Shown here: positions 1,057 through 20,950 of the stretch, piece after piece
Numbering within the stretch: position 1 is the stretch's first letter
Layout of the letters: each line of letters opens with the position of its first letter
Assembly (NCBI RefSeq): GCF_003991155.1
Contig: NZ_CP031293.1
Strand: one strand, 5' to 3'
Source: Escherichia coli
GTDB taxonomy: Bacteria > Pseudomonadota > Gammaproteobacteria > Enterobacterales > Enterobacteriaceae
Length of the DNA: 64,000 bases
Translations under genes and position numbers: made by a program
Notes under the pieces: model-generated
Seen by the model: the letters and a program-made list of their open reading frames with translations, nothing else
What the model was told of the DNA's origin: nothing
Databases searched by the model: none

Positions 1057-2520
1057 TTATTTACATGCATATAACCTTCTGAAATTACTATAACAGTGCT
1101 CGTTCTTACTACCACTACAACGTTGTTCATCATATTCAGCGATTAAAGTTCCAGATATATAACCAAACTGAGGGCTATACGTTGACCCCGGACAGGCACA
1201 TGTCCCTGTATCACTATTCGGTATTACACACTTATATCCAGATACTTGATCGGTTATTGTTATAAAAATACCTTTCAGGCCATCACCACTTGCTGTCTGC
1301 CATTTACCACTGACACACGATAACACTCGGCCTGTACTGTCTCGCCCCACCAGACCATTAGGCGTACATTTCGCATTTAACGTTGCCTGACCATTTAAAT
1401 GGAGATATTCACCTGCTTTGATCCTGCCAGTTGATTCAATTGTTCCATTGGATTTTATCGTTCCGGCGGTAAGATTACCTGACGCATAAATATTACCCGC
1501 ATTGTTCATGTAAGCTTTAACTGTTTTACCGGTTCCTACACCAACAGTCCCTGACGCATACAAGTCATAGGTGCGAACACCGCCAGCCCAGCCAGCTGGC
1601 AGATCGTTTGGATTAAGTCCGTTCGTGGCAATACGACTACCAAATCTCGCCAGACCTGTTGTTGAAAGCGTATTCAGATAAGTATCGGATTTTACCTTCA
1701 GGTTGTTGTTGATATTTACAGGACCATTAAGGGTAGATGTTCCACCCACAGTCAGATCTGATGCAACAGACGCATTACCCGTGGTTTTCAGTGCTCCGGT
1801 TGTTGTTGTCCCTGATGCCGTCATATCTTTGATGTTTTTGATGCTCTTACCACCAAGATTCAGATCACCCGTCATCGGCAACGTTCCATCACGGCGCAGA
1901 TAAACAGAATACATTGAAGAGTTATACCCCACGCGGTAAGCCAGCAATCCACCACCCGTAATATTGCTGTAGCTGTTAGAGTTCTCACTCCACTGACCAC
2001 CATAGCCGGAAGCTATCTTGGTGTTTCTGCTCATCCCACCATCAACACCTGCCGCCTGAACCGCTTTACCTAACAGGTCATAACGAATACGACCACCTTC
2101 TTCCCACGGGCTGGCGGTTGTTATAAGGCCGTTAATGACATAATCAGGCGCTGTTCCTGAACGCTTTAACACAATCTTATAGGATGCTTTTTGCGCGTTA
2201 GTTCCTGTATAGCCTACAGGCAACAGACCTTCATTAATTAACGTCTGGTAAGTGATTTCACAACCAGCAGCCGAACATGTTCTTGGCCCCGGATCGCTAC
2301 TTTGATTGTTGGATGATGACAGTGTGGAAATCTTGTCATATCGAATACTGATATAGCGGTTAACCGCTTCACCAAGCTGTTTAATCTGTGTTCCAACATT
2401 ATCTGCTAATACCGCTTCCTGATTGTTTCGCATATCCTGAAACTTCATAAAAGCGATAAGCGTTCCAATACCTAAAACAATACTGACTTCCAGTAAGGTA
2501 AATCCTTTATTCTTTATCAT
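1057..2520 (-). CDS. pilV: Type IVb minor pilin / tip adhesin, PilV-like
   Basis: N-terminus [17 protein letters not shown] matches the type IV prepilin processing/hydrophobic motif (G|FTLLE); large Gly/Thr/Ser-rich body as in R64-type PilV; GGAGA RBS before ATG at 2520; directly downstream of pilS. Confidence 0.65.
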
Positions 2521-2572
2521 AATTATCTCCCTGTTTTGGCAATAAGAAAGAAAAGGGCTTACGCCCTCTTCA

Positions 2573-3130
2573 TTAAATAGACGTGAAAACTAATGTATTA
2601 CTTGTGGCATTCGTACATGCTGCTGCCGTAGCTGCCACATCGAGTGTTCCTCCTGCGGCTTTAACAACCTTGGTTCCAACCGTGGTAATGTAGAAATTAC
2701 CTGCTGCCGCTGTCGCAATCTTCACACATTCCGCTGCTGGCACATTATCGTATGTGATAGTGAAAGAAGAGCCAGCCGCTGATGATGGTCCTGTAGCTGT
2801 AGCAGCCAGCGTCACATTACCTTTAAAGGCATTAATGGGTTTAGCTGCCGTTCCTGACCCACTTAACATATTGTCAGGGAAGATTTTTGCCTGAACAGCC
2901 ACAGTATTTGTCAGGCCAGTAAAGCTTGATGCCGACGTGTATAATGCTTTAACACCTGCCTGTATGGTGGCAATGTTATTGGATTCTGCCTGCGCTCTTT
3001 GTGAAGCCTGAACCTTGGGATAAACGATAAAAGCCGCTACCACTAATGCAGCAATGATGCCCAAAACAAGTAATAGTTCGAGTAGTGAGAAACCTTTCTT
3101 GCTTTTTCTTTTGTTATTTAATAAAACCAT
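2573..3130 (-). CDS. pilS: Type IVb major prepilin, PilS-like
   Basis: Long basic leader [13 protein letters not shown] followed by [16 protein letters not shown], characteristic of type IVb prepilins; GGAGA RBS 6 nt before ATG. Confidence 0.65.
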
Positions 3131-6036: not shown

Positions 6037-6337
6037 CTTTTCTTTACTCTTTTTGTCCTGTGGATGTGAAACCTACACCTTTAATCCAGTTTGCGCCGCT
6101 TATTCCGGCGTATTATTTTACAACAATACATATATTTCGTATTAATTGATAAGAGGGGCATTTTACATTGGCTTATTTTCTTAAAGACAATGCCCACCTA
6201 TACACTGCGTAGCAGTGTGTGGGGTCTACCGACGGTTGCCTGCCGCAGGCTAAAAGCAAAACCAAGGTCAACGTCAACCCCGAAGTTTTTCTGACGAAAA
6301 ACTAACAGCAGCATTTATATTTGAGGTTATATTTTTA

Positions 6338-11001: not shown

Positions 11002-11613
11002 CTATTTTTGTTTATATAAATCGTAGGAACTTAATTTTTTAGATTTCTCATAGGCATTTTCAATGTATAAAGATACATCTGCTAAAAATCGGTCTTCTTC
11101 TATCAATGAAATATAAGAACCAGTCAATTGATCATATGATTTGCACTCAGGGCAACAATATTTATCTTCTGAAGTTAAATTAAACCTATTATTATTAATA
11201 ATGTCATATAGTTCAGTTGTGTCAATAGTTCTTGATGAACATCCATCAGGCTTGATTGAAGAAGATACTAACCAGTCATAGCTATTATTAACCTTCATTA
11301 TCACACCAACAATGCCATTAGTTCGGGAAGTGGTTCCTCCTCTCTTGTATTCTTTCAATGCATATTCAATTTCCCAGTCAATCCATTTACTTTTAATCAT
11401 ATTCGGGGAAATAATAACGATTAAAACAGATGTCCCGAAAATCATATTTTTAAGATTGTTCTTTATATTATCTACTGTTGTATTACTTATATCAGGAGAC
11501 TCCGATGTTTCCCCTTTATAGTAAACAGCATCATCACCTAATGCCTTGACAATTTTGTCTCTTAAATCCTGTGCTTCACTATATTTATATGATATGAATG
11601 TTTCATGAGCCAT
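11002..11613 (-). CDS. thsB: Thoeris ThsB, TIR-domain protein
   Basis: N-terminal ETFISYKYSEAQ and WIDWEIEYAL are typical TIR-domain signatures; 16 bp downstream of thsA on the same strand. Confidence 0.8.
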   Translation of the reverse strand: MAHETFISYKYSEAQDLRDKIVKALGDDAVYYKGETSESPDISNTTVDNIKNNLKNMIFGTSVLIVIISPNMIKSKWIDWEIEYALKEYKRGGTTSRTNGIVGVIMKVNNSYDWLVSSSIKPDGCSSRTIDTTELYDIINNNRFNLTSEDKYCCPECKSYDQLTGSYISLIEEDRFLADVSLYIENAYEKSKKLSSYDLYKQK

Positions 11614-11629
11614 AACTTCACCTAATATA

Positions 11630-13066
11630 TTATTTATTCAGTTTGTTTATGATTTTTATTACAACTTCTATTGTTTTTTTTACCGAAAAATCTTTTTCAG
11701 TAAGCTCAGACAAATCATTATATATCCATTCATTACTTCCATAATATTTCTTAGGATCTTGTGATATTTGTTCAAATATATATTTAGACATATACCCGGT
11801 ATTGGGTAAAGGAATTGGTACAAGGCCATGTTGAACAGCAATCTCAAACTCTCTAAATACTCCCCTAGCATTTACTATATCATTATTTTCCTCTTGTTTA
11901 TTTCCAAAAATAAACAATGCAATACCACCAAGAGGAATCATTCTCTGTCTATACTCCTCCCAAAGTTCTTGAATATCTTTCCCCTTACTGACAGTTTGTG
12001 GAAATGGTCTAACAATGAGCTGTTCTTCTGATAATTTATCTGGCCTACTATAAATTGCATCCAACGCACCATTTATCACAGAACTTCCGACGCCCCATCC
12101 AAATCCATTCACTATCCTATAATTATTCTTTATAATCTCATATGCTAATGTGTGAATAAAATCTAATGCTTTAGGTCTTTCAAGATCCCCATATTTTTCT
12201 GCACTACCAGAAATAAATATCGTTTTCTTTTTAAATGATTGCTCTATCTTAGCTAGAATTTTAGGGATGTCAGAATATTCATCTATTAATAATACTTGTA
12301 TACCAAATCTCTTGAGATCATCGATTCGCAGTTTTTGTTTTCTGATCTTATAATTTACTGTTTCTTCATCATCTAGGGAATTATTAGCCTCATTCTTCAT
12401 AAAGCAATAGTGTGTCCTCTTGTCCCCAGAATGAGTATACAAACGACTCAAAATGTAATCCAGATTTGGGTCGGTAAAACTAAACCCTATGAATAGAAAG
12501 GTTTTTGATATTAAATCTCCGCTAAGTGCGGTGATAAATGAAGCGTGTGTTCTGTAGTATTTTTCATACTGCTCTTTATATAAAATAGCCTTGGATGGGG
12601 ACGAAATATCACCATGCATTTTATATACTATCGCGTCTCGCTTAGGTCGTGTTGTATTTAAATCATCTATGTTTCTTTTTACATCTGCAATTTTGTAAAC
12701 TTTCCGCAGACTATCTTCAATTAAAGTGTCATAGTTTGTTGTCCAAAATGTCTTAATCGGTAAACGAGCAATTATATTATGAACCTCTGATGGCTCGGCT
12801 TGCTCAGAAAACTCTTCGATTATCTTCCTTGTGAGTTTTGTAGCCCCTTTCTTTTCATTAACATGAAATTGAGCAAGCGATATTAGATCGTCTTCTTTAT
12901 TAATGTCTAAACTAAGCTCTTCTGCTATATCGCTAAGTAATTCTTTCCAATCAACATAACCTTGACTTTTAGACATTCCTGCGCCAGAAAAAATAGCAGC
13001 ACAATCATTTTCAAGATCTTTAACAAAATCTTTTATGAAAACTTCAATTTCATTACTAAACGTCAT
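11630..13066 (-). CDS. thsA: Thoeris ThsA, SIR2 (NAD-binding) plus SLOG domain protein
   Basis: From ATG at 13066 (GGAG RBS 9 nt upstream) the protein MTFSNEIEVFIKDF...AAIFSGAGMS...TTNYD...MHGD (SIR2) then IFISGSA...GFGWGVGSSVINGALD (SLOG) closely parallels Bacillus cereus ThsA as I recall it. Confidence 0.85.
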   Translation of the reverse strand: MTFSNEIEVFIKDFVKDLENDCAAIFSGAGMSKSQGYVDWKELLSDIAEELSLDINKEDDLISLAQFHVNEKKGATKLTRKIIEEFSEQAEPSEVHNIIARLPIKTFWTTNYDTLIEDSLRKVYKIADVKRNIDDLNTTRPKRDAIVYKMHGDISSPSKAILYKEQYEKYYRTHASFITALSGDLISKTFLFIGFSFTDPNLDYILSRLYTHSGDKRTHYCFMKNEANNSLDDEETVNYKIRKQKLRIDDLKRFGIQVLLIDEYSDIPKILAKIEQSFKKKTIFISGSAEKYGDLERPKALDFIHTLAYEIIKNNYRIVNGFGWGVGSSVINGALDAIYSRPDKLSEEQLIVRPFPQTVSKGKDIQELWEEYRQRMIPLGGIALFIFGNKQEENNDIVNARGVFREFEIAVQHGLVPIPLPNTGYMSKYIFEQISQDPKKYYGSNEWIYNDLSELTEKDFSVKKTIEVVIKIINKLNK

Positions 13067-13274
13067 TACACTTATCTCCATTTTAACTATTATTCCCAAA
13101 AGTAGAGAATAAACCTTTCAACCGGAGTTCATGAAACAGCATCTAAAAATATTCTGCCGGATACGAGTAAAATCATACTGGATATAAAAACAGTTGTCGA
13201 GAACTAAAACAATTGAAAACATGGCCAGATGGCATAGATAATATTACATACGAAAATTATTAACCAGATAATAT

Positions 13275-14237
13275 TCACGATGGTGATGTTTCATCGGACA
13301 TCCTTACATTATAAAGAAAAACCAGATGCATATTTACATCATTTCTTTTCTTAAAATAGCTATAACGCTGGAGGCTCAGCCATTTTGATGTTGCCAATAC
13401 GTATGGGCAGCCCTCCTTCCTGCTGGCACAACTTCTTAATGGATTGCCACTCCGCTTTTCAGACTCCATGTGAGAAGTGAGCGAATCAAAAGCACCGTCG
13501 GCTACGACGATGGTAGGTTCTTCATCTGTTTCATTGCCGATCGACTCCGTATTTGTGCTTTCAGCACGTTCTTCTTCCAGTTCAGCCAGACTCGCTTTCA
13601 GCTCATCAAGGCTGCTGGCTGCGTCTTTTGGTGCATAGAAGAACAGCCCGCTAATGAAGATGGCTTCCATAACCTCTCTAAAAGAAAACGAGGTATCGCC
13701 ATAAACAAAGCAACTGTGCTTGGAACTCTTCACACCCGATACGTTTTTCTTCAGCAAACCGTCTTTCGGTGAAGTCATTAATGTCTGTTTGCTATAGAGG
13801 ATTACAGGAAGATTTTTAATTTGTTGAACATCGCCGCTGATACTCCAGCGTTCTTTATCTCCTTTGATAAAGCCGGAAGCATCACAGCTACTTTCTATGT
13901 CAAACTCATCAGTCGGGAAGCGCTCGCGATTAAAATAGGTCGAAAAATCCTCCCCTTCTTCCATATCCTGACGCTTGTAAGCGCGATAAACCGAGCTTCG
14001 ACGGTCAATTCCGATCCATTCAATATCCCATGCCGTTGGCCCGGACGGTTTTCTTACCTCATCTATATAAGCACCAACATCTCTGTCCAGATAAGCTGCT
14101 AACAAAGCCTTCCATGGTTCTATTGCCAGAAAGATACTTGCCAGCGTTGTTCCTTCTTCAATCAGAACGGTATGGTGGAAGAACCGGAGAAGAAAGAACG
14201 GATCGGTATTGGCTATGACGTTCTGGATGGATAGCAA
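13275..14237 (-). CDS. Hypothetical protein with acidic central region
   Basis: 320-aa ORF immediately upstream of thsA; no recognisable domain. Confidence 0.35.
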   Translation of the reverse strand: MLSIQNVIANTDPFFLLRFFHHTVLIEEGTTLASIFLAIEPWKALLAAYLDRDVGAYIDEVRKPSGPTAWDIEWIGIDRRSSVYRAYKRQDMEEGEDFSTYFNRERFPTDEFDIESSCDASGFIKGDKERWSISGDVQQIKNLPVILYSKQTLMTSPKDGLLKKNVSGVKSSKHSCFVYGDTSFSFREVMEAIFISGLFFYAPKDAASSLDELKASLAELEEERAESTNTESIGNETDEEPTIVVADGAFDSLTSHMESEKRSGNPLRSCASRKEGCPYVLATSKWLSLQRYSYFKKRNDVNMHLVFLYNVRMSDETSPS

Positions 14238-14369
14238 TGGAACGGCAGCGGTTTCATCGTAATTGGATTGAAACCGTAGTATTGCATCGGAACAAAAATT
14301 AACTTACCTTCCATTGCTCATCCTTCTCCTGTAGTTATCAGACTAAATATTTTACCAGATCATAGGTTA

Positions 14370-14756
14370 TTATCGCATTTTGCTTTTTACTGATTCATAT
14401 TCGTTGGTGTGATCCTTAAAAGTGCTTATTGCTTTGGGCAATGACCTGTTAAATAAACCATTAATCTCCTGTGATGCTTTTCCGTTTCTGACAACCATAA
14501 TATATCCAAGAGTCAGATCTTGTCTTATCATTGGATTCAATGATTCTATACCTATGCTAATCCCCGTATTTTTGTATTTAGCAACCGGATACCCAACTGA
14601 ACTATGGATAACAATATTGCCGCTATCTGCAAGCCTTGATAACATTCTGTCGCTGTATATCGATTTTCTTAAATCCTCTAAAACAGGGATATAGTGTTTA
14701 TCCATTGTTCCTGTTAAAGTTGTAGGTATATAGATCTTTGTTTTTATTTTTAGCAT
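14370..14756 (-). CDS. Hypothetical protein
   Basis: 128-aa ORF, same strand as and upstream of 13275-14237. Confidence 0.35.
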   Translation of the reverse strand: MLKIKTKIYIPTTLTGTMDKHYIPVLEDLRKSIYSDRMLSRLADSGNIVIHSSVGYPVAKYKNTGISIGIESLNPMIRQDLTLGYIMVVRNGKASQEINGLFNRSLPKAISTFKDHTNEYESVKSKMR

Positions 14757-14883
14757 GATATTTTCCTGTTATTGTTTTTATTTAATACCATGCAACTGAT
14801 CGTAATATCAAAGATATTTATTATGTTCAATATAACTTTTAAAACATCTGCGATTTTATAGTTTCTTCACTCATCTGTGTGAG

Positions 14884-15108
14884 TTATGAAACCAAACGAA
14901 TATAAATATTTTTCAACCTGTCTTTATCACAACGACTTACAGACTCTGATAACAGATAATGACTATAATTATTGACACAAATATTGTTGCCGTTTTCAAG
15001 GGTTAATTTCAATCCAAGTTCTGTATCTTCAACTTTGTTTATAATACAGATCATAAATGGTGTTTTGTCATGTGGATGGAAGAGTGTGATCATTTTGATA
15101 TTGTTCAT
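14884..15108 (-). CDS. Hypothetical small protein (doubtful)
   Basis: 74-aa ORF in AT-rich DNA; no RBS assessment possible. Confidence 0.2.
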   Translation of the reverse strand: MNNIKMITLFHPHDKTPFMICIINKVEDTELGLKLTLENGNNICVNNYSHYLLSESVSRCDKDRLKNIYIRLVS

Positions 15109-15436
15109 TGTGTTTGTCCTTTTTTATTTATTACTGGTTAATACTCTATCGCAAGTGTAAAAATCAAATATATTTTCATTTATTAATGATTTTACTTCTT
15201 ATTATTAAACTTCTTTTTGAAAAGATTTTTATCTCTGTGCTTATGCACGGCTACGCCCTAAAACTGACATTTTGTATTTTATTTTACTACTATGAGGTAA
15301 TAAGTGAATGTATTCGATCATAGTCAGATCTATTTTCCTTTTAACTTTTAATTCGGTTCCTATGTTTGAACATAGCATTCCTCCTCTGACATATAGCATT
15401 TGCTCTTAAATGTATAGGAAAACTATATCTTTAGTA

Positions 15437-15474
15437 GCAGCACTTCGTGATTGTTGCCAACAATCACTTTGCTG
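15437..15474. repeat. 38-bp repeat containing a perfect palindrome gtgattgttg-c-caacaatcac (copy 1)
   Basis: Direct reading of the sequence; 10-bp arms. Confidence 0.6.
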
Positions 15475-15576
15475 AACAGGGCTTGTCCCTGTTAATTATG
15501 GATTTATCCAAAAAAAGATCGCGTCGAAGACGCATATAAAGTAAAAGGAAAATTAATTAAGCTCTCACAGTAAATG

Positions 15577-15614
15577 CAGCGGTTCGTGATTGTATGCAAC
15601 AATCACTTCGCTGT
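15577..15614. repeat. 38-bp repeat, copy 2 (gtgattgt-atgca-acaatcac), about 85 percent identical to copy 1
   Basis: Direct reading; 140 bp from copy 1 in an ORF-free stretch. Confidence 0.6.
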
Positions 15615-15835
15615 AATAACATAGTAAGGAAGATAAAGTTCAATAACGTTAGTAGGTGCCATTTATATAAGACACCAATCAACTAAAAAGAAGAACTGTT
15701 TTCTATATTTCATCCTTTTAAACGTCATCCAAAGCTTCGCTATTTGAATAATGAAGAAGAAAAATGCTCTCAAGCCAGTTATAGCTTAAAACAAAGTACG
15801 CACTCTCGGGAGTTAAAGTCCCGAATCCCGGTACT

Positions 15836-15854
15836 TAAGATGATAATCATTATC
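15836..15854. promoter_or_regulatory. Fur-box-like palindrome
   Basis: taagatgataatcattatc matches the 19-bp Fur consensus GATAATGATAATCATTATC at 16/19; core tgataatcattatca is a perfect 7-1-7 palindrome; about 170 bp upstream of gene 16023. Confidence 0.4.
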
Positions 15855-16022
15855 AATAATAAAAAATAATACAGCTCCTATTTTTACTTATTTCAGAACT
15901 TGAAGTTTTTAATAACCAAACTTCAAGTATTATTATTTTTATAAAAACTGCACTTAAAATATTGACTAACTAAAAATAGTACGTTATCTACTTTATATAA
16001 AAAGAATAAAGGGGAAAGTATT

Positions 16023-16568
16023 ATGTTAGATAATAAAATAAAAAAATCAAGAAGAGGTCTACCTCGCCATGTAAAAAACCCATTCCTTAATGATACAAAT
16101 ATACATACAAAAACAGGTATCAGACGTATCACAACAGGAAAAGATCGCTTAGCCGTAGTAAATGAAAATACAGGAGAACAGGTTGGGCATGGTGGTTTCT
16201 TTCAGTCAATGGAAGTAGACAAGACACAGTTCGTGAAGCTTTATGTGGATGGCGTATCAGCTATTGAGGGTTTATCCTCATCCGGTAAGAAAGTATTTAA
16301 GATACTGTATCTTGCTATTAGAGACAATAAAGATACAGATACGATATTAATGTCATTCGATATTGTTGATCAAGAGATTGTAAAAATATCAAGAACGACA
16401 TATTTCAAAGGGATGAAAGAACTTGCTGACAAGAAATTTATTGCTGAGACCATGATACAGAACTATTATTTTATTAATCCAGACTATATGTTTAATGGTG
16501 ATCGTTTAACTTTCATGAAAACTTATTACTTGAAGGGTAAAAAGAAAACAGCGAATAATAAAAATTAA
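16023..16568 (+). CDS. Hypothetical basic protein, possibly DNA-binding
   Basis: 181-aa ORF with AAAGGGGAAAG RBS-like region upstream; weak resemblance to small replication/DNA-binding proteins, not verified. Confidence 0.35.
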   Translation: MLDNKIKKSRRGLPRHVKNPFLNDTNIHTKTGIRRITTGKDRLAVVNENTGEQVGHGGFFQSMEVDKTQFVKLYVDGVSAIEGLSSSGKKVFKILYLAIRDNKDTDTILMSFDIVDQEIVKISRTTYFKGMKELADKKFIAETMIQNYYFINPDYMFNGDRLTFMKTYYLKGKKKTANNKN

Positions 16569-16722
16569 TTACCAACGGGAAAACAGGTTAAAAAATCGCC
16601 GTAATAAACTACGATTACATTAAAGGTATTTTCTTGCCAAGAGAGAAACATCACCAATTTGACACCTGAACCATATCTCGTAATATAAATATATCAACCA
16701 TTTTATTTACGAGGTATTTCTT

Positions 16723-17202
16723 ATGAGAAAAGTAAAAACAGACAACAGTGATTTAATCGAATACGTAAATACAGTTAAAGAACTAAAAAATCACATTCCA
16801 ATAGAAGAATACAGAAATGAATATCGTAAACTGCGTTCCGATGATATTCCATTGGTTAAAGCTCAGAAATTTAAATCTGCCCATACCGAACTTCGCAGAC
16901 TTGAAAAAAAGAGAGAGTCTCTTATTGAATACTTTATTGACGAGTTAAATCCCATCAGCAGTTCAAAAGCTAACACATCAGCGAGATCAACTAGTAATCT
17001 CGATTTATTTAACGAACGCGTGTTATACCGTAAGGCTATTTCAGAAAAGAGTGATGAAGAAATAGTAGCCTTGGTCATAAAACAACGCACAGAAGCCGCT
17101 GTTGAGTTCCAACGTTCAATTGAACATAGTCTTGAGCAACTATCTCGTATCTCGTCAGAGTTCGAACCAGCAAGCCAAAAGCGCAGGAAAATGTCTCTTT
17201 AA
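16723..17202 (+). CDS. Hypothetical protein
   Basis: 159-aa ORF, charged and coiled-coil-like. Confidence 0.35.
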   Translation: MRKVKTDNSDLIEYVNTVKELKNHIPIEEYRNEYRKLRSDDIPLVKAQKFKSAHTELRRLEKKRESLIEYFIDELNPISSSKANTSARSTSNLDLFNERVLYRKAISEKSDEEIVALVIKQRTEAAVEFQRSIEHSLEQLSRISSEFEPASQKRRKMSL

Positions 17203-17359
17203 AACGACTCTATGCTATTCGTGTGAAATGTGATGTATTAGATTGCTTATGCAATAATGTTTACTATATTATTTACTGACTGTTTTTTTTGATTTTTCCA
17301 ACAGCACCGTAAGCATTATTTTTATTAATCGCCTATTTTAAAACACCGGATGACATACT

Positions 17360-17764
17360 ATGAGTGAAGCTCTCAAGGCACTGAACAATATTCGTACACT
17401 TCGCGCACATGCTCGTGAAACAGATCTGACAACTCTGGAAGAGATGCTGGAAAAGCTCTCTGCTGTCGTTGAAGATCGCCGTGAGGAAGAAAATTCAGCC
17501 CGTAAAGAACAAGAAGAACGTCAGGCTAAACTGGAAGCCTTCCGCCAGAAATTGTTAGAAGACGGTATCGATCCTACAGAACTACTCGCTGCTGTTAGTT
17601 CATCCCAGCCTAAAGCCAAATCAACTCGTGCTCCTCGTCCTGCTAAATACAAATATACAGATGAAAACGGTAATGAGCAGACTTGGACGGGTCAGGGCCG
17701 TACTCCTAAAGCAATCGCCGCTGCTATCGAAGCTGGTAAGACACTGGAAGACTTTGCAATCTAA
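17360..17764 (+). CDS. H-NS family nucleoid-associated protein (island-encoded paralogue)
   Basis: [20 protein letters not shown]...[25 protein letters not shown] aligns closely with E. coli H-NS, including the DNA-binding TWTGQGRTP motif. Confidence 0.85.
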
Positions 17765-17827
17765 CCGCTACAGCATATCCGGGCTTCACTGTTCTCAAGA
17801 TAACAGGCCCGGAAAATATTCGATTTT

Positions 17828-18208
17828 TCATCCAAGGCTATCCCAGTCTGGCAGGTTGTTAACGACCTTTCGCCACCAATGATACGCAGCCATAAGAACA
17901 CCAAAACAAATACCTGCGACGACGCTTGAGACAAATGCAGTGCCCGGTTGTATCCCTGTATCCTTCCAAGTAAAAAACCACATACAGATCCCCCATGCCG
18001 GACCAAACCATCCACCCATCAACAAAGTGATTTGCCAGAATGAGGCAAAAGGTAGCGGTGGTATCTTGAGTCCAGCTTTCCATGCGAGGTGTAGCAAAGG
18101 AGGGGCATAATTACTTCGCCACATCTTCTTGCTTTCCATGATGGCAATAGCGTGTTTCTTTTTAGCTTCAAAGCCCATACGGTTCCCTCCAGCTCCACCT
18201 TTACTCAT
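17828..18208 (-). CDS. Hypothetical inner-membrane protein
   Basis: 126-aa ORF with two or more hydrophobic, Trp-rich segments. Confidence 0.4.
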   Translation of the reverse strand: MSKGGAGGNRMGFEAKKKHAIAIMESKKMWRSNYAPPLLHLAWKAGLKIPPLPFASFWQITLLMGGWFGPAWGICMWFFTWKDTGIQPGTAFVSSVVAGICFGVLMAAYHWWRKVVNNLPDWDSLG

Positions 18209-18282
18209 CTATCGATAAAAAGCCACAATAGACAATAATGATTATCAATTCCATGTATGTAAGTCAAAAATAACTCAAATAG

Positions 18283-18525
18283 TCATTCCTTTAGATCTTC
18301 TGGCGAAACCCGGTCACATGCCATTTTCTCAAGCATTCTTTGTAATCTTTTCATTTTCAACTTACGCGCTTTTTTCTCACCAATCTCCTGATAGTATTCT
18401 TCACGACGTTCGTTGACCACGCTCCTGAAATTTTTCAAAAGCTGTTCAAGTGTTTTGATGTCAGTAGTTGCGGCTTCCGCTTGGATTTTTTTATACATAT
18501 ACATCACATGAAATTCATCGATCAT
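18283..18525 (-). CDS. hnsT: Truncated H-NS-like protein (H-NST-like, oligomerisation domain only)
   Basis: 80-aa protein with TLEQLLKNFRSVVNERREE matching the H-NS N-terminal dimerisation region but no DNA-binding domain. Confidence 0.6.
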   Translation of the reverse strand: MIDEFHVMYMYKKIQAEAATTDIKTLEQLLKNFRSVVNERREEYYQEIGEKKARKLKMKRLQRMLEKMACDRVSPEDLKE

Positions 18526-18598
18526 TTTTTAGCTCCTTGAATAGACAAATAATATTTGTTATCAGCCCCAAGAAGGGGCCGATAGACACCAGAACATA

Positions 18599-18895
18599 TC
18601 AACATATTGATTCCGCCAGAACCGTATAATGCATTTTGGCTAATGCCTGCTTAACCCCCTTAAAATCCACCTCAGATAGTTTTTCAGCCGCGTTCTTTTT
18701 CCATGCTTTTTTCAGAAGATGTTTCTCCGCATTTCTCATCGCCAGATCGATTAGCCTACAGACAAACTCATGATCCATTACATGCGTTATAATCATATTA
18801 CTGGTCGTTTTATCCTTTGAGTTAAAAAGCTCCGCGTAGATATGCAAGGACACAACATAAAAGATTTCAGTATTTTTATTTTTAAATGTATTCAT
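18599..18895 (-). CDS. Hypothetical protein
   Basis: ORF 18599..18955; likely start MNTFKNK at 18895. Confidence 0.3.
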   Translation of the reverse strand: MNTFKNKNTEIFYVVSLHIYAELFNSKDKTTSNMIITHVMDHEFVCRLIDLAMRNAEKHLLKKAWKKNAAEKLSEVDFKGVKQALAKMHYTVLAESIC

Positions 18896-18939
18896 TGGCT
18901 TTTCCTTTTGGTTAATATTAAAAATGAAATGCTGTAGCA

Positions 18940-19242
18940 TTAGCGGTATACACACTTATAGACAATCCAAAGCTGACGAAGGTGTTGTTTTACCTTACTG
19001 TGGCTTACTTCTCCATAAATCCGATTCCTTTGGTCTTCTTCTGTGTCATCATAAAAATGATATCTCGTTTTTTTAATGATACTTTCCATAATGTCATTCA
19101 TATTGTATTTATTGTTGAGAAAATAATAAAAATCATCTGGTGCATTCCTCTGCAATTCGTCCATATAGTTCCTAAAATAACATTCGGCTTGTTCAATAAA
19201 CTGTTTTGTCGTAATAAGTTCTATCTTCATATTCTTCTCCAT
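18940..19242 (-). CDS. Hypothetical protein
   Basis: 100-aa ORF. Confidence 0.3.
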   Translation of the reverse strand: MEKNMKIELITTKQFIEQAECYFRNYMDELQRNAPDDFYYFLNNKYNMNDIMESIIKKTRYHFYDDTEEDQRNRIYGEVSHSKVKQHLRQLWIVYKCVYR

Positions 19243-20860: not shown

Positions 20861-20950
20861 TGGCGGAGAGAGGGGGATTTGAACCCCCGGTAGAGTTGCC
20901 CCTACTCCGGTTTTCGAGACCGGTCCGTTCAGCCGCTCCGGCATCTCTCC
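20861..20950 (-). tRNA. serU: tRNA-Ser (anticodon CGA), serU
   Basis: Reverse complement reads GGAGAGATGCCGGAGCGGCTGAACGGACCGGTCTCGAAAACCGGAGTAGGGGCAACTCTACCGGGGGTTCAAATCCCCCTCTCTCCGCCA, matching the E. coli serU sequence as I recall it. Confidence 0.95.

What the first reader, a model, noticed from the sequence alone, without database searches (positions are those of the whole stretch)
15300..16020. ORF-free 700 bp with twin palindromic repeats and a Fur-box-like site
Two 38-bp repeats 140 bp apart each contain a hairpin-capable palindrome (gtgattgttg-c-caacaatcac), and a 16/19 match to the Fur consensus lies about 170 bp upstream of gene 16023. This suggests either a small RNA locus or a complex, possibly iron-responsive, promoter for 16023-16568.
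Basis: seen in the sequence. Interest (0 to 1): 0.45.

Follow-up and report, generated by a model that had tools for sequence, protein, structure and literature searches.

The report
Conserved control module of a genomic island
The twin hairpin repeats are real and belong to an undescribed, highly conserved non-coding module beside the replication-initiator-like gene of a widespread mobile island (the ROD21/tcpC family), probably a replication-control region, and this island also has a perfect Fur box on the gene's likely promoter.

Summary
The 914-bp spacer (15109-16022) has no annotated gene. It holds two 38-nt bipartite palindromes (R1 15437-15474, R2 15576-15613) and a Fur-like site.

The spacer lies in an EARL (ROD21-like) mobilizable island at tRNA-Ser, between a small divergent gene and a RepL-like winged-helix gene.

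The repeats are the core of a module of roughly 260-390 nt. It occurs in 779 of 5,426 E. coli genomes and across Enterobacterales. The inner arms almost never vary and the loops do. Two small hairpins between the repeats show compensatory changes.

R2 coincides with a conserved leftward promoter. A terminator-like hairpin follows, predicting an RNA of about 70 nt.

In sister islands the downstream gene is an O-like initiator. There the module adjoins class-specific arrays of 3-4 dyad-symmetric iterons at 21-23 bp spacing, which resembles a replication origin. The class in this window has no such array, which fits published data that ROD21 does not replicate on its own.

The Fur site is a perfect 7-1-7 box (15841-15855) over the orthologous repL promoter. 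Homologues match only 12 of 14.

The function of the R palindromes is unresolved. Nothing here was tested experimentally.

The parts
14884..15108 (-). Small divergent gene 'hyp74' (74 aa, no Pfam, NCBIfam or PHROG match). It is the usual left neighbour of the module.
   Evidence: ORF. RefSeq hypothetical protein. No family match. tblastn finds it in 82 loci at 40-100% identity.
15236..15262 (.). Block X: a short hairpin (GTGC/GCAC here, ATGAGC/GCTCAT in Buttiauxella) followed by GGCTACGCCCT. It forms the upstream edge of the conserved module.
   Evidence: At least 90% column conservation in 102 distinct units. The stem sequence differs in L027.
15360..15375 (.). 16-bp perfect palindrome CTATGTTTGAACATAG. 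It matches (identical to one copy) the iteron motif used four times by another initiator class, and sits 77 nt upstream of R1.
   Evidence: present at -77 in 44 twin units; 4 copies at 22-23 bp spacing downstream of R2 in O_L027-class islands.
15388..15430 (.). Block A (TATAGCATTTGCTCTTAAATGTATAGGAAAACTATATC). It holds overlapping face-to-face -10-like hexamers: minus strand TATAGT (15427->15422, with its -35 ATCACG inside R1) and plus strand TATATC (15424-15429, with -35 TTGCTC).
   Evidence: Alignments. Promoter-position scan: minus strand 79/102, plus strand 45/102. The window allele lacks the final T of the plus-strand -10.
15437..15474 (+). R1: a 38-nt bipartite palindrome. Outer stem CAGCA/TGCTG, asymmetric internal loop, inner arms GTGATTGT/ACAATCAC, variable centre.
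   Evidence: Seven of eight inner-arm pairs never vary in 31 sequences.
15475..15493 (.). Hairpin C (AACAGGG-CTTGT-CCCTGTT).
   Evidence: Compensatory variants GTG/CAC, GGA/TCC and GAG/CTC.
15499..15512 (.). Block D: near-invariant palindrome TGGATTTATCCA overlapping a DnaA-box-like TTATCCAAA (8 of 9 to TTATCCACA).
   Evidence: A site with at most 1 mismatch is present here in 83 of 102 units.
15521..15533 (-). Hairpin E (GCGTC-GAA-GACGC). On the minus strand it is followed by GATCTTTTTTT, which is terminator-like.
   Evidence: Terminator scan. Compensatory GCGGC/GCCGC and ACGTC/GACGT variants. U-rich tail in 90 of 102.
15510..15582 (-). Predicted leftward RNA of about 70 nt, running from the R2 promoter to hairpin E and its U tract. 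The body (block F, 15534-15575) is A+T-rich and poorly conserved.
   Evidence: predicted length 64-94 nt, median 70. This is an inference; no transcript data.
15576..15613 (+). R2: second copy of the bipartite palindrome, with outer stem CAGCG/CGCTG. It lies between the -35 (ATTACA, 15617->15612) and the -10 (TACAAT, 15594->15589) of a minus-strand promoter-like site.
15794..15836 (.). 43-bp imperfect palindrome, which can also be read as two 22-bp-spaced repeats (AAGTNCCGA..CCGG). It is specific to the RepL class and sits just upstream of the predicted repL promoter.
   Evidence: (I1 in L003).
15836..15867 (+). Fur-like site (19-mer 15836-15854; perfect 7-1-7 at 15841-15855) overlapping the predicted repL promoter: -35 ATGATA 15840-15845 and -10 AAAAAT 15862-15867. 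Orthologues carry TTGATA-16-AATAAT.
16023..16568 (+). repL-like winged-helix gene, homologue of SEN1990 of ROD21.
   Evidence: RefSeq name. Pfam RepL at E = 2.4e-5. Family alignment and Pfam scan. Literature: PMC10655114.

Best explanation
The spacer is the conserved non-coding control region of the replication-initiator-like cassette (repL-DUF4756-hns) of an EARL/ROD21-type integrative mobilizable island.

Shown: its core is a module of about 260 nt (about 390 nt with the upstream blocks), in the order A-R1-C-D-E-F-R2. The module is the same whichever class of winged-helix RepL/O-like protein is encoded downstream.

Shown: in sister islands the module lies next to 3-4 class-specific, dyad-symmetric iterons spaced two helical turns apart.

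Inferred: the whole spacer is therefore built like a lambda-type origin or replication-control region, with a shared part and an initiator-specific part.

Shown: the island in this window belongs to the RepL class, which has no iteron array. It keeps only one relic iteron of another class and a 43-bp palindrome at the repL promoter.

Inferred: here the region probably acts mainly as a divergent promoter and control region, or is a vestigial origin.

Inferred: within the module, R1 and R2 are hairpin- or cruciform-capable palindromes whose inner arms are read sequence-specifically by a very conserved factor that I could not identify. R2 sits between the -35 and -10 of a leftward promoter, which would make an RNA of about 70 nt ending at hairpin E. 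R1 overlaps the -35 of a second leftward promoter facing the hyp74 operon.

Inferred: in this allele, repL itself is probably transcribed from a promoter about 150 nt upstream of its ATG, and a perfect Fur box covers that promoter.
For: Context. The island carries an integrase, MobQ, TraD, RepL, an H-NS paralogue, a truncated H-NS, an RDF and tRNA-Ser. This is the EARL family of PMC6035254 and PMC10655114.

Conservation. Homologous spacers occur in 779 of 5,426 E. coli genomes, all on chromosomes and, in the listed hits, none annotated. The motif was found in 36 stretches of DNA from many species across Enterobacterales and in at least 120 metagenome contigs. That gave 98-102 distinct twin units.

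Anatomy and covariation. See the alignments and pair counts. In 31 sequences 95.3% of cells are paired. Seventeen cells carry double changes, against 4.8 +/- 1.6 in shuffles (0 of 500 shuffles reach the observed value).

Promoter and terminator. Conserved positions.

Initiator family. The downstream proteins are diverged homologues matching Pfam RepL, Phage_rep_O and HTH_36 and a PHROG 'replication initiation O-like' family.

Iteron arrays. O_L027 class: 26 of 26 distinct loci have 4 copies of CTATGTTYRAACATAG. O_L008 class: 17 of 21 have 3-4 copies of GTTTCC-N5-GGAAAC. O_L018 class: 11 of 11 have 3-4 copies of GTTATCG-N5-CTATAAC. L029 has GGAC-N6-GTCC. The RepL class has none in 29 loci.

Literature. 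Deleting SEN1990 does not change ROD21 copy number or the amount of excised form. That paper also notes a long, poorly transcribed non-coding region upstream of SEN1990 homologues (PMC10655114).

Fur box..
Against: There are no experimental data for this element.

Four palindromic sites at 21-23 bp spacing could be a repressor operator array, as in lambda OR, rather than origin iterons. The protein-family matches are weak (E from 1e-4 to 1e-8). The only functional study of a family member points to a transcriptional role.

The module is richer in G+C than its flanks, so it is not an obvious unwinding element. Its only DnaA-like site is a single 8/9 match, and no DnaA or IHF sites flank the iterons.

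No island protein is conserved enough to explain the invariant R arms. Only the H-NS paralogue comes close, at a median of 88% identity. The recognition helices of the downstream proteins differ between classes.

R1-R2 spacing varies (138-142 nt or 164 nt), and one class has a single R.

The predicted RNA has a variable body. Its pairing with the rep ribosome-binding site shows no co-variation.
Confidence: 0.4

Rival explanations
1. The module works as single-stranded DNA during or after conjugative transfer or rolling-circle copying of the excised island. It would be a single-strand initiation or origin site, or a single-stranded promoter, read by host primase or RNA polymerase. This would explain invariant hairpins that do not track the island's own proteins.
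For: Hairpins C, E and X show compensatory changes, so they act in a single-stranded state.

The R outer stem co-varies between the two paralogues: A-T in R1 and G-C in R2. One variant closes the internal loop into a perfect 13-bp stem.

The asymmetric 4x2 internal loop is conserved, which is unusual for a symmetric duplex operator.

Both strands fold far better than shuffles (z = -5.3 and -6.0).

The A-R-C-D-E unit can be tandemly repeated. Extra R copies lie about 680 bp upstream of mobQ, near the probable oriT, in some islands.

The island is a MobQ-mobilizable element, so it is presumably transferred as a single strand. Low transcription in the duplex state is reported in PMC10655114. ICEBs1 sso and plasmid Frpo/ssi elements are precedents (PMC11541004).
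Against: The module has no sequence similarity to any plasmid element; it is absent from true plasmids.

The hairpins do not rebuild a -35/-10 pair the way Frpo does (my inspection).

G-T wobble counts do not point to one strand.

MobQ has no recognisable primase domain.

The transferred strand is unknown. The module is 9 kb from the probable oriT.
Confidence: 0.2
2. R1 and R2 are ordinary duplex-DNA operators for one dimeric regulator, either host-encoded or a still unrecognised island protein. The regulator would co-ordinately control the leftward promoters (hyp74 and cargo operon, and the small RNA) and, in some islands, mobQ. The replication resemblance would be irrelevant.
For: The arms are invariant and the centre varies. 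This is a 21-bp 8-5-8 palindrome of the TTGT..ACAA type.

R2 spans the -35 to -10 of a conserved promoter, and R1 overlaps another -35.

Copies are scattered in front of different operons, always in the orientation of the downstream genes.

PMC10655114 suggests that the family protein acts as a transcription factor.
Against: No candidate binder is as conserved as the site.

The outer arms are asymmetrically spaced.

Symmetric co-variation of the outer stem argues for base pairing rather than protein read-out.

The sites lie 400-700 bp from the start codons.
Confidence: 0.2
3. The region from R1 to R2 is one structured non-coding RNA of about 190 nt. R1 and R2 would pair as a long closing stem, with hairpins C, D and E in a multiloop.
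For: The minimum-free-energy fold on both strands pairs R1 with R2. A plus-strand promoter-like site, TTGCTC-18-TATATT, would start transcription at the 5' edge of R1 in 45 of 102 units.
Against: There is no terminator after R2. The window allele lacks the key T of that -10. Loop-loop co-variation between R1 and R2 is marginal: 3.70 against 3.55 expected. There is no Rfam match. One island class has a single R. Reported transcription is low.
Confidence: 0.08
4. The twin repeats are the island's origin of transfer. This was suggested in passing for the homologous ROD21 spacer in PMC10655114.
For: The layout, an inverted repeat followed by a conserved ..TTGCTG flank, loosely recalls MOBP-type oriTs; this rests on my recollection of R64 and RP4 sequences and is a lead only. 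The oriT of ROD21 has not been mapped.
Against: A better candidate lies directly upstream of mobQ. There, an inverted repeat with compensatory changes is followed by an invariant GTGGGGTCTACC, conserved across the 14 distinct loci aligned.

The twin repeats are 9 kb from the relaxase gene. Two direct copies 139 bp apart would be unstable as nick sites. The loops are variable.
Confidence: 0.05

Closest known systems
Lambda-type origin (ori lambda with the O protein) and iteron-plasmid origins
   Same: A winged-helix initiator-like gene lies next to four dyad-symmetric repeats spaced about two helical turns apart. The repeats change with the protein class, while a neighbouring segment stays the same. 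This holds in sister islands. A short leftward RNA sits next to the initiator gene, as oop RNA does in lambda (that comparison is from my own knowledge).
   Different: The repeats lie upstream of the gene, not inside it. The island in this window has no array. There is no obvious A+T-rich unwinding element or helicase loader. Replication has never been shown, and ROD21 seems not to replicate (PMC10655114).
Fur boxes of Fur-repressed promoters
   Same: A perfect 15-bp 7-1-7 motif, and 16 of 19 to the classical consensus, placed over the -35 and spacer of the predicted promoter.
   Different: The promoter is predicted only by orthology and is weaker in this allele. Most orthologues have a degraded box (12 of 14). 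No iron-related gene is nearby.
Counter-transcript or small-RNA control of plasmid rep genes (CopA, Inc RNA, RNA I) and lambda oop RNA
   Same: A predicted RNA of about 70 nt, made from a constitutive-looking promoter, ending in a hairpin and U tract, and encoded upstream of and opposite to a rep-like gene.
   Different: It lies about 430 nt from the start codon, upstream of the predicted repL promoter, so overlap with the repL mRNA is not established. Its body is variable and shows no co-variation with the rep translation start.
Frpo/ssi single-stranded promoters and sso elements of conjugative plasmids and ICEs
   Same: A non-coding unit of a few hundred nucleotides with many hairpins, sometimes tandemly repeated, on a transferable element. 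Its invariance does not follow the element's own proteins.
   Different: There is no sequence homology. No rebuilt -35/-10 pair is present in a stem. The element is not shown to lie in the leading region.
The long non-coding region upstream of SEN1990 homologues in EARL islands (PMC10655114)
   Same: This is the same locus. That paper noted the long intergenic region, its low transcription, and a possible oriT.
   Different: That paper did not describe the repeats, hairpins, promoters, iteron arrays or Fur box.

Membership tests
EARL (ROD21-like) excisable, mobilizable genomic island | Insertion at a tRNA 3' end with a tyrosine integrase and an RDF, a MOBQ relaxase and TraD, type IV pilin genes, and full-length and truncated H-NS paralogues. 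| tested here: met
   RefSeq annotation of an identical locus, tRNA-Ser at 20861-20950, MobA_MobL domain, and the same backbone in Nissle 1917 and strain 042. Family definition from PMC6035254 and PMC10763509.
Fur box | Match to the 19-bp consensus or to the 7-1-7 motif. | tested here: met
   16 of 19 and 14 of 14 specified positions of TGATAATNATTATCA. No Markov simulation of 3000 reached this.
Fur box | Overlap with the core promoter of the regulated gene. | tested here: inconclusive
   The box overlaps the position of TTGATA-16-AATAAT conserved in orthologues. The window allele reads ATGATA-16-AAAAAT (8 of 12). No transcription start data exist.
Fur box | Conservation in orthologous loci. 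| tested here: not met
   Of 29 distinct RepL-class alleles, 22 score 12 of 14, one 11 and one 13; only 5 are perfect. On the 19-bp measure orthologues score 12 of 19.
Fur box | Fur binding and iron-dependent expression. | not testable with these tools
   Needs EMSA or footprinting and reporter assays.
Iteron-type (lambda-like) replication origin | Array of at least 3 initiator-specific repeats at helical spacing, next to the initiator gene. | tested here: not met
   The window and all 29 distinct RepL-class loci have chains of 2 or fewer. The feature is met in the sister classes: 26 of 26, 17 of 21 and 11 of 11.
Iteron-type (lambda-like) replication origin | Adjacent gene belongs to a replication-initiator family. 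| tested here: inconclusive
   Pfam RepL at E = 2.4e-5 for the window protein. Phage_rep_O at 1.3e-4 and a PHROG O-like family at 7.5e-8 for one sister class. PDB profile hits are only weak winged-helix regulators.
Iteron-type (lambda-like) replication origin | A+T-rich unwinding element and host-factor sites (DnaA, IHF). | tested here: inconclusive
   There is one 8/9 DnaA-like site in block D and none near the iterons. The module is more stable than its flanks.
Iteron-type (lambda-like) replication origin | Supports autonomous replication. | not testable with these tools
   Literature for the RepL-class island ROD21 is negative (PMC10655114). The O-like classes are untested.
Small RNA with an intrinsic terminator | Sigma-70 promoter, then a hairpin with a U tract within about 50-300 nt, both conserved. 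| tested here: met
   ATTACA-17-TACAAT scores 9 of 12. The promoter is at a conserved position in 83 of 102 units. The hairpin with at least 5 U in 8 is present in 90 of 102, with a median predicted length of 70 nt.
Small RNA with an intrinsic terminator | Detected transcript, or membership of a described RNA family. | tested here: not met
   No Rfam match at E <= 1 over 13000-19000. Transcript detection is not testable here, and PMC10655114 reports low transcription of the homologous spacer.
Origin of transfer of a MOBQ element | Inverted repeat plus a conserved nick region next to the relaxase gene. | tested here: not met
   The twin repeats lie 9 kb from mobQ. A separate conserved inverted repeat with GTGGGGTCTACC lies within about 150 bp upstream of mobQ.
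Frpo/ssi single-stranded DNA promoter | Homology to known Frpo/ssi elements, or a hairpin that rebuilds -35, -10 and UP elements. | tested here: not met
   No match in true plasmids. The folds do not place a -35/-10 pair in one stem.

The most novel reading that the evidence does not exclude
The bipartite R hairpins and their companion hairpins may be a new class of cis-acting element read by the host. One possibility is a single-strand initiation or promoter signal. Another is an RNA-polymerase- or primase-binding structure. Integrative mobilizable islands would use it to establish, replicate or switch on their H-NS 'stealth' cassette after transfer. Interchangeable initiator-plus-iteron cassettes would plug in beside it.
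Probability: 0.2. Interest if true: 0.75.

Novelty: new variant of a known kind. Interest (0 to 1): 0.55.

Why it matters
EARL islands carry virulence and defence cargo in major pathogens and in a probiotic strain. Examples are ROD21 of Salmonella Enteritidis, ICEKp258.2 of Klebsiella ST258, and the tcpC island of CFT073 and Nissle 1917.

How these islands are maintained, regulated and established after transfer is largely unknown. Their oriT is unmapped, and the RepL-like protein has no clear role.

This work adds three things:

- a precisely delimited, near-invariant non-coding module;
- the finding that sister islands pair it with class-specific iteron arrays and interchangeable initiator-like proteins;
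- a perfect Fur box on the repL promoter of one lineage.

Each gives a concrete, testable handle on replication or control of this family. The results also suggest why the RepL-class island ROD21 showed no replication phenotype.

Tried and rejected
- Rfam. No match at E <= 1 over 13000-19000. ARAGORN finds no tRNA-like gene in the spacer.
- Phage or plasmid origin of the module. There is no phage match. Only four 'plasmid' records match (310 kb to 4.8 Mb), and they are probably chromosomal sequence filed as plasmids. All but two unrelated IMG/VR hits are EARL islands.
- Small proteins. The 12-codon ORF at about 15751-15789 shows mostly non-synonymous changes and loses its stop codon in two loci. 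The 30-codon ORF across R1-E is broken by 1-nt indels in homologues.
- The predicted RNA pairing with the rep ribosome-binding site. Cognate duplex energy is -12.83 kcal/mol against -12.86 for non-cognate pairs, p = 0.55.
- Long-range R1:R2 pairing tested through loop co-variation. The result is marginal: 3.70 against 3.55, p about 0.02 on non-independent data.
- Strand assignment from G-T wobbles. Hairpin E favours the plus strand and hairpin C the minus strand, so there is no call.
- The RepL/O-like protein as the R binder. The recognition helices differ between classes while R stays the same.
- Another island protein as the binder. None is conserved enough. hyp74 has no family match.
- A primase domain in MobQ that could use the hairpins. 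None is recognisable.
- DnaA or IHF sites near the iterons. None found.
- The module as the least stable duplex. It is not.
- A periodicity score for iterons. It was too insensitive, so I replaced it with palindrome and chain searches.
Full report
**1.

The two repeats are at 15437-15474 (R1) and 15576-15613 (R2). They are 38 nt long, 84% identical, and start 139 nt apart. A degenerate pattern covering the hairpin matches the 64-kb window exactly twice and never in 100 shuffles.

R2 is 8-5-8.

The Fur-like 19-mer TAAGATGATAATCATTATC lies at 15836-15854 and matches 16 of 19 positions. With the local A+T-rich composition, such a match is expected in about 0.2% of simulated spacers.

The stretch 15109-16022 contains only short mechanical ORFs. 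RefSeq annotates nothing there in the listed genomes that carry it.

**2. Context**

The window is E. coli chromosome. The spacer is 100% identical in about 30 complete genomes. Recognisable homologues occur in 779 of 5,426 genomes, always on the chromosome.

It lies in an island of about 22 kb inserted at tRNA-Ser, between zinT and mtfA. The gene order is:

- integrase;
- pilV and a type IV pilin gene;
- traD and mobQ;
- variable cargo, here a TIR plus SIR2 pair;
- the spacer;
- repL, DUF4756 and an hns paralogue;
- a truncated hns, an RDF and DUF6387.

The same backbone occurs in Nissle 1917, where the cargo includes tcpC, and in strain 042. This is the EARL (ROD21-like) family of PMC6035254 and PMC10763509.

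The RepL-like protein is the homologue of SEN1990. PMC10655114 predicts that SEN1990 is a winged-helix protein. Its deletion does not change ROD21 copy number or maintenance. That paper also mentions a long, poorly transcribed non-coding region upstream of SEN1990 homologues and suggests it might hold the oriT. Nothing more has been published on it in the library I could search.

**3. The repeats belong to a conserved module**

A pattern scan of one genome per species found the motif in 36 stretches of DNA from many species, spread over Enterobacterales genera such as Dickeya, Serratia, Pectobacterium, Yersinia, Citrobacter, Klebsiella and Salmonella arizonae. After removing duplicates there are 98-102 distinct twin units. 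Most have 138-142 nt spacing, and a minority have 164 nt.

Alignments define these parts, left to right, in window coordinates:

- block X (15236-15262), a short hairpin followed by GGCTACGCCCT;
- a 16-bp palindrome (15360-15375);
- block A (15388-15430);
- R1;
- hairpin C (15475-15493);
- block D (15499-15512), a near-invariant palindrome TGGATTTATCCA that overlaps TTATCCAAA, an 8/9 DnaA-box-like site;
- hairpin E (15521-15533);
- block F (15534-15575), A-rich and variable;
- R2.

The inner arms of R (GTGATTGT / ACAATCAC) are almost invariant while the central 5 nt vary freely. Part of this invariance comes from how I found the sequences, because the pattern scans required one exact copy. But the second copy, and the homologues found by BLAST down to 69% identity, show the same invariance.

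Hairpins C and E behave differently. Their stems change by compensatory substitutions:

- C: GGG/CCC changes to GTG/CAC, GGA/TCC and GAG/CTC;
- E: GCGGC/GCCGC changes to GCGTC/GACGC and ACGTC/GACGT.

On a 31-sequence alignment, 95.3% of cells are paired. Four pairs have double changes. Seventeen cells carry double changes, against 4.8 +/- 1.6 in shuffles; 0 of 500 shuffles reach that value.

The outer stem of R also co-varies between the two paralogues: CAGCA/TGCTG in R1 and CAGCG/CGCTG in R2. One metagenomic variant replaces the internal loop with a perfect 13-bp stem.

So several elements are constrained as base-paired structures, and the R inner arms are constrained as sequence as well.

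**4. Promoters and a predicted small RNA**

I scanned all 102 distinct units for sigma-70-like sites and projected the hits onto the alignment. Three positions are conserved:

- Minus strand, -10 TACAAT inside R2 (15594->15589), with a -35 at correct spacing (ATTACA, TGGACA or TTTTCA). Found in 83 of 102. R2 therefore lies between the -35 and -10 of a leftward promoter. The TA that makes this -10 is the consistent difference between R2 and R1.
- Minus strand, -10 TATAGT in block A (15427->15422), with -35 ATCACG inside R1. Found in 79 of 102, facing the hyp74 operon.
- Plus strand, TTGCTC-18-TATATT, a weaker site found in 45 of 102. The window allele lacks the final T.

Downstream of the R2 promoter on the minus strand, hairpin E is followed by a U-rich tail in 90 of 102 units. 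This predicts an RNA of 64-94 nt, median 70 nt. Its body is poorly conserved. It shows no cognate-specific pairing with the ribosome-binding site of the downstream gene. There is no Rfam match.

**5. Link to replication**

The gene downstream of the module belongs to one of at least four diverged classes of the same winged-helix family. Members match Pfam RepL, Phage_rep_O, HTH_36 and DnaD_N, and a PHROG 'replication initiation O-like' family, all weakly.

In three O-like classes, the segment between R2 and the gene holds 3-4 dyad-symmetric repeats at 21-23 bp spacing. The sequence is specific to the protein class:

| Class | Repeat | Loci with an array |
|---|---|---|
| O_L027 | CTATGTTYRAACATAG | 26 of 26 |
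| O_L008 | GTTTCC-N5-GGAAAC | 17 of 21 |
| O_L018 | GTTATCG-N5-CTATAAC | 11 of 11 |
| L029 (distant RepL-like) | GGAC-N6-GTCC | single locus |
| RepL (this window) | none | 0 of 29 |

A class-specific array next to a shared segment and an initiator-like gene is the layout of lambda-type and iteron-plasmid origins. An operator array for a repressor would look similar, and sequence alone cannot separate the two.

The RepL class, which includes this window, Nissle 1917 and strain 042, has no array. It keeps one copy of the O_L027-type palindrome at 15360-15375 and a 43-bp palindrome at 15794-15836, just upstream of the predicted repL promoter. This fits the published absence of a replication phenotype for ROD21.

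**6. What the R palindromes do remains open**

- They cannot be the specific sites of the downstream protein, because the recognition helices differ between classes while R does not.
- No island protein is conserved enough to be the binder. Only the H-NS paralogue approaches it.
- They are unlikely to be the oriT. A conserved inverted repeat with compensatory changes, followed by an invariant GTGGGGTCTACC, lies directly upstream of mobQ.
- They have no homologue on plasmids or phages.
- Both strands of the R1-R2 segment fold much better than shuffles, with R1 paired to R2. Loop co-variation for that pairing is marginal.
- The A-R-C-D-E unit is duplicated in tandem in Buttiauxella.
- Single R-C units lie about 680 bp upstream of mobQ in strain 042 and others.

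I therefore rank the readings as follows:

1. A shared part of a replication or control region, with R as a hairpin-capable site overlapping leftward promoters.
2. A single-strand-active element used after transfer.
3. A plain duplex operator.

**7. The Fur site**

The site contains TGATAATCATTATCA (15841-15855), a perfect 7-1-7 Fur motif. No simulation of 3000 reached that score.

Orthologues carry TTGATA-16-AATAAT at this position, a 10/12 promoter about 150 nt upstream of the repL start codon. In the window allele the box covers the -35 and spacer of that promoter.

Five of 29 distinct alleles have the perfect box. Most of the rest score 12 of 14, itself a 2% event anywhere in such a spacer. 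Fur repression of repL is a reasonable, lineage-specific prediction, but it is untested.

**8. Verdict**

The finding is real and is not an artefact.

The new results are the family-wide module, the initiator-specific iteron arrays in sister islands, the promoter embedded in R2 with its predicted RNA of about 70 nt, and the perfect Fur box.

The mechanism of the R palindromes is inferred, not shown.

Noticed in passing
window 6190-6250 (also L003 5140-5200): Probable oriT of the island. An inverted repeat (ACACTGC-GTA-GCAGTGT, replaced by ACACTCAC-TTCG-TGAGCGT in other islands) is flanked by invariant CAATGCCCACCTAT and GTGGGGTCTACCGACGGTTGCCTGCCGCAGGC, within about 150 bp upstream of mobQ. 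The ROD21 oriT is reported as unidentified.
   Followed up: partly
L003 4632-4712; L025, L033, L037: In strain 042 and several other islands, an extra single R-plus-hairpin-C unit lies about 680-770 bp upstream of mobQ, in the same orientation as mobQ. The window's island lacks it.
   Followed up: partly
L027 4480-5200: In Buttiauxella massiliensis the X-A-R-C-D-E unit is tandemly duplicated (R copies 299 and 309 nt apart) before the R2-type copy. A perfect DnaA box, TTATCCACA, lies between the units.
   Followed up: no
window 14955-14973 (minus strand): A second 16/19 match to the Fur consensus (AATAATTATAGTCATTATC) lies inside the hyp74 coding region.
   Followed up: no
window 11002-13066: The cargo next to the spacer is a TIR-domain gene plus a SIR2-family gene on the minus strand, a Thoeris-like defence pair. 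Other islands of the family carry tcpC, radical SAM genes, a reverse transcriptase or DotA/TraY at the same place.
   Followed up: no
window 13275-14237 (minus strand): The 320-codon ORF left of hyp128 overlaps a gene annotated as a frameshifted pseudogene in the identical RefSeq locus.
   Followed up: no
window 1057-3130: The mobilizable island encodes a PilV-type shufflon tip adhesin and a type IV major pilin but no secretion system. This suggests it modifies a helper plasmid's thin pilus.
   Followed up: no
window 17360-17764 and 18283-18525: A full-length H-NS paralogue and an 80-aa truncated H-NS are present. The H-NS paralogue is by far the most conserved backbone protein across the loci collected (median 88% identity).
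   Followed up: partly
L006 1099-1863, L009, L020, L036, L043: Some islands carry a second, divergent RepL-like paralogue (about 30% identity) on the opposite strand, left of the module. There the module lies between two initiator-like genes.
   Followed up: no
L173 5393-5416 and L174 4490-4513: Two IMG/VR contigs contain GTGATTGT-N5-ACAATCAC without the R flanks or any island gene. This is either a chance match or an unrelated operator.
   Followed up: no
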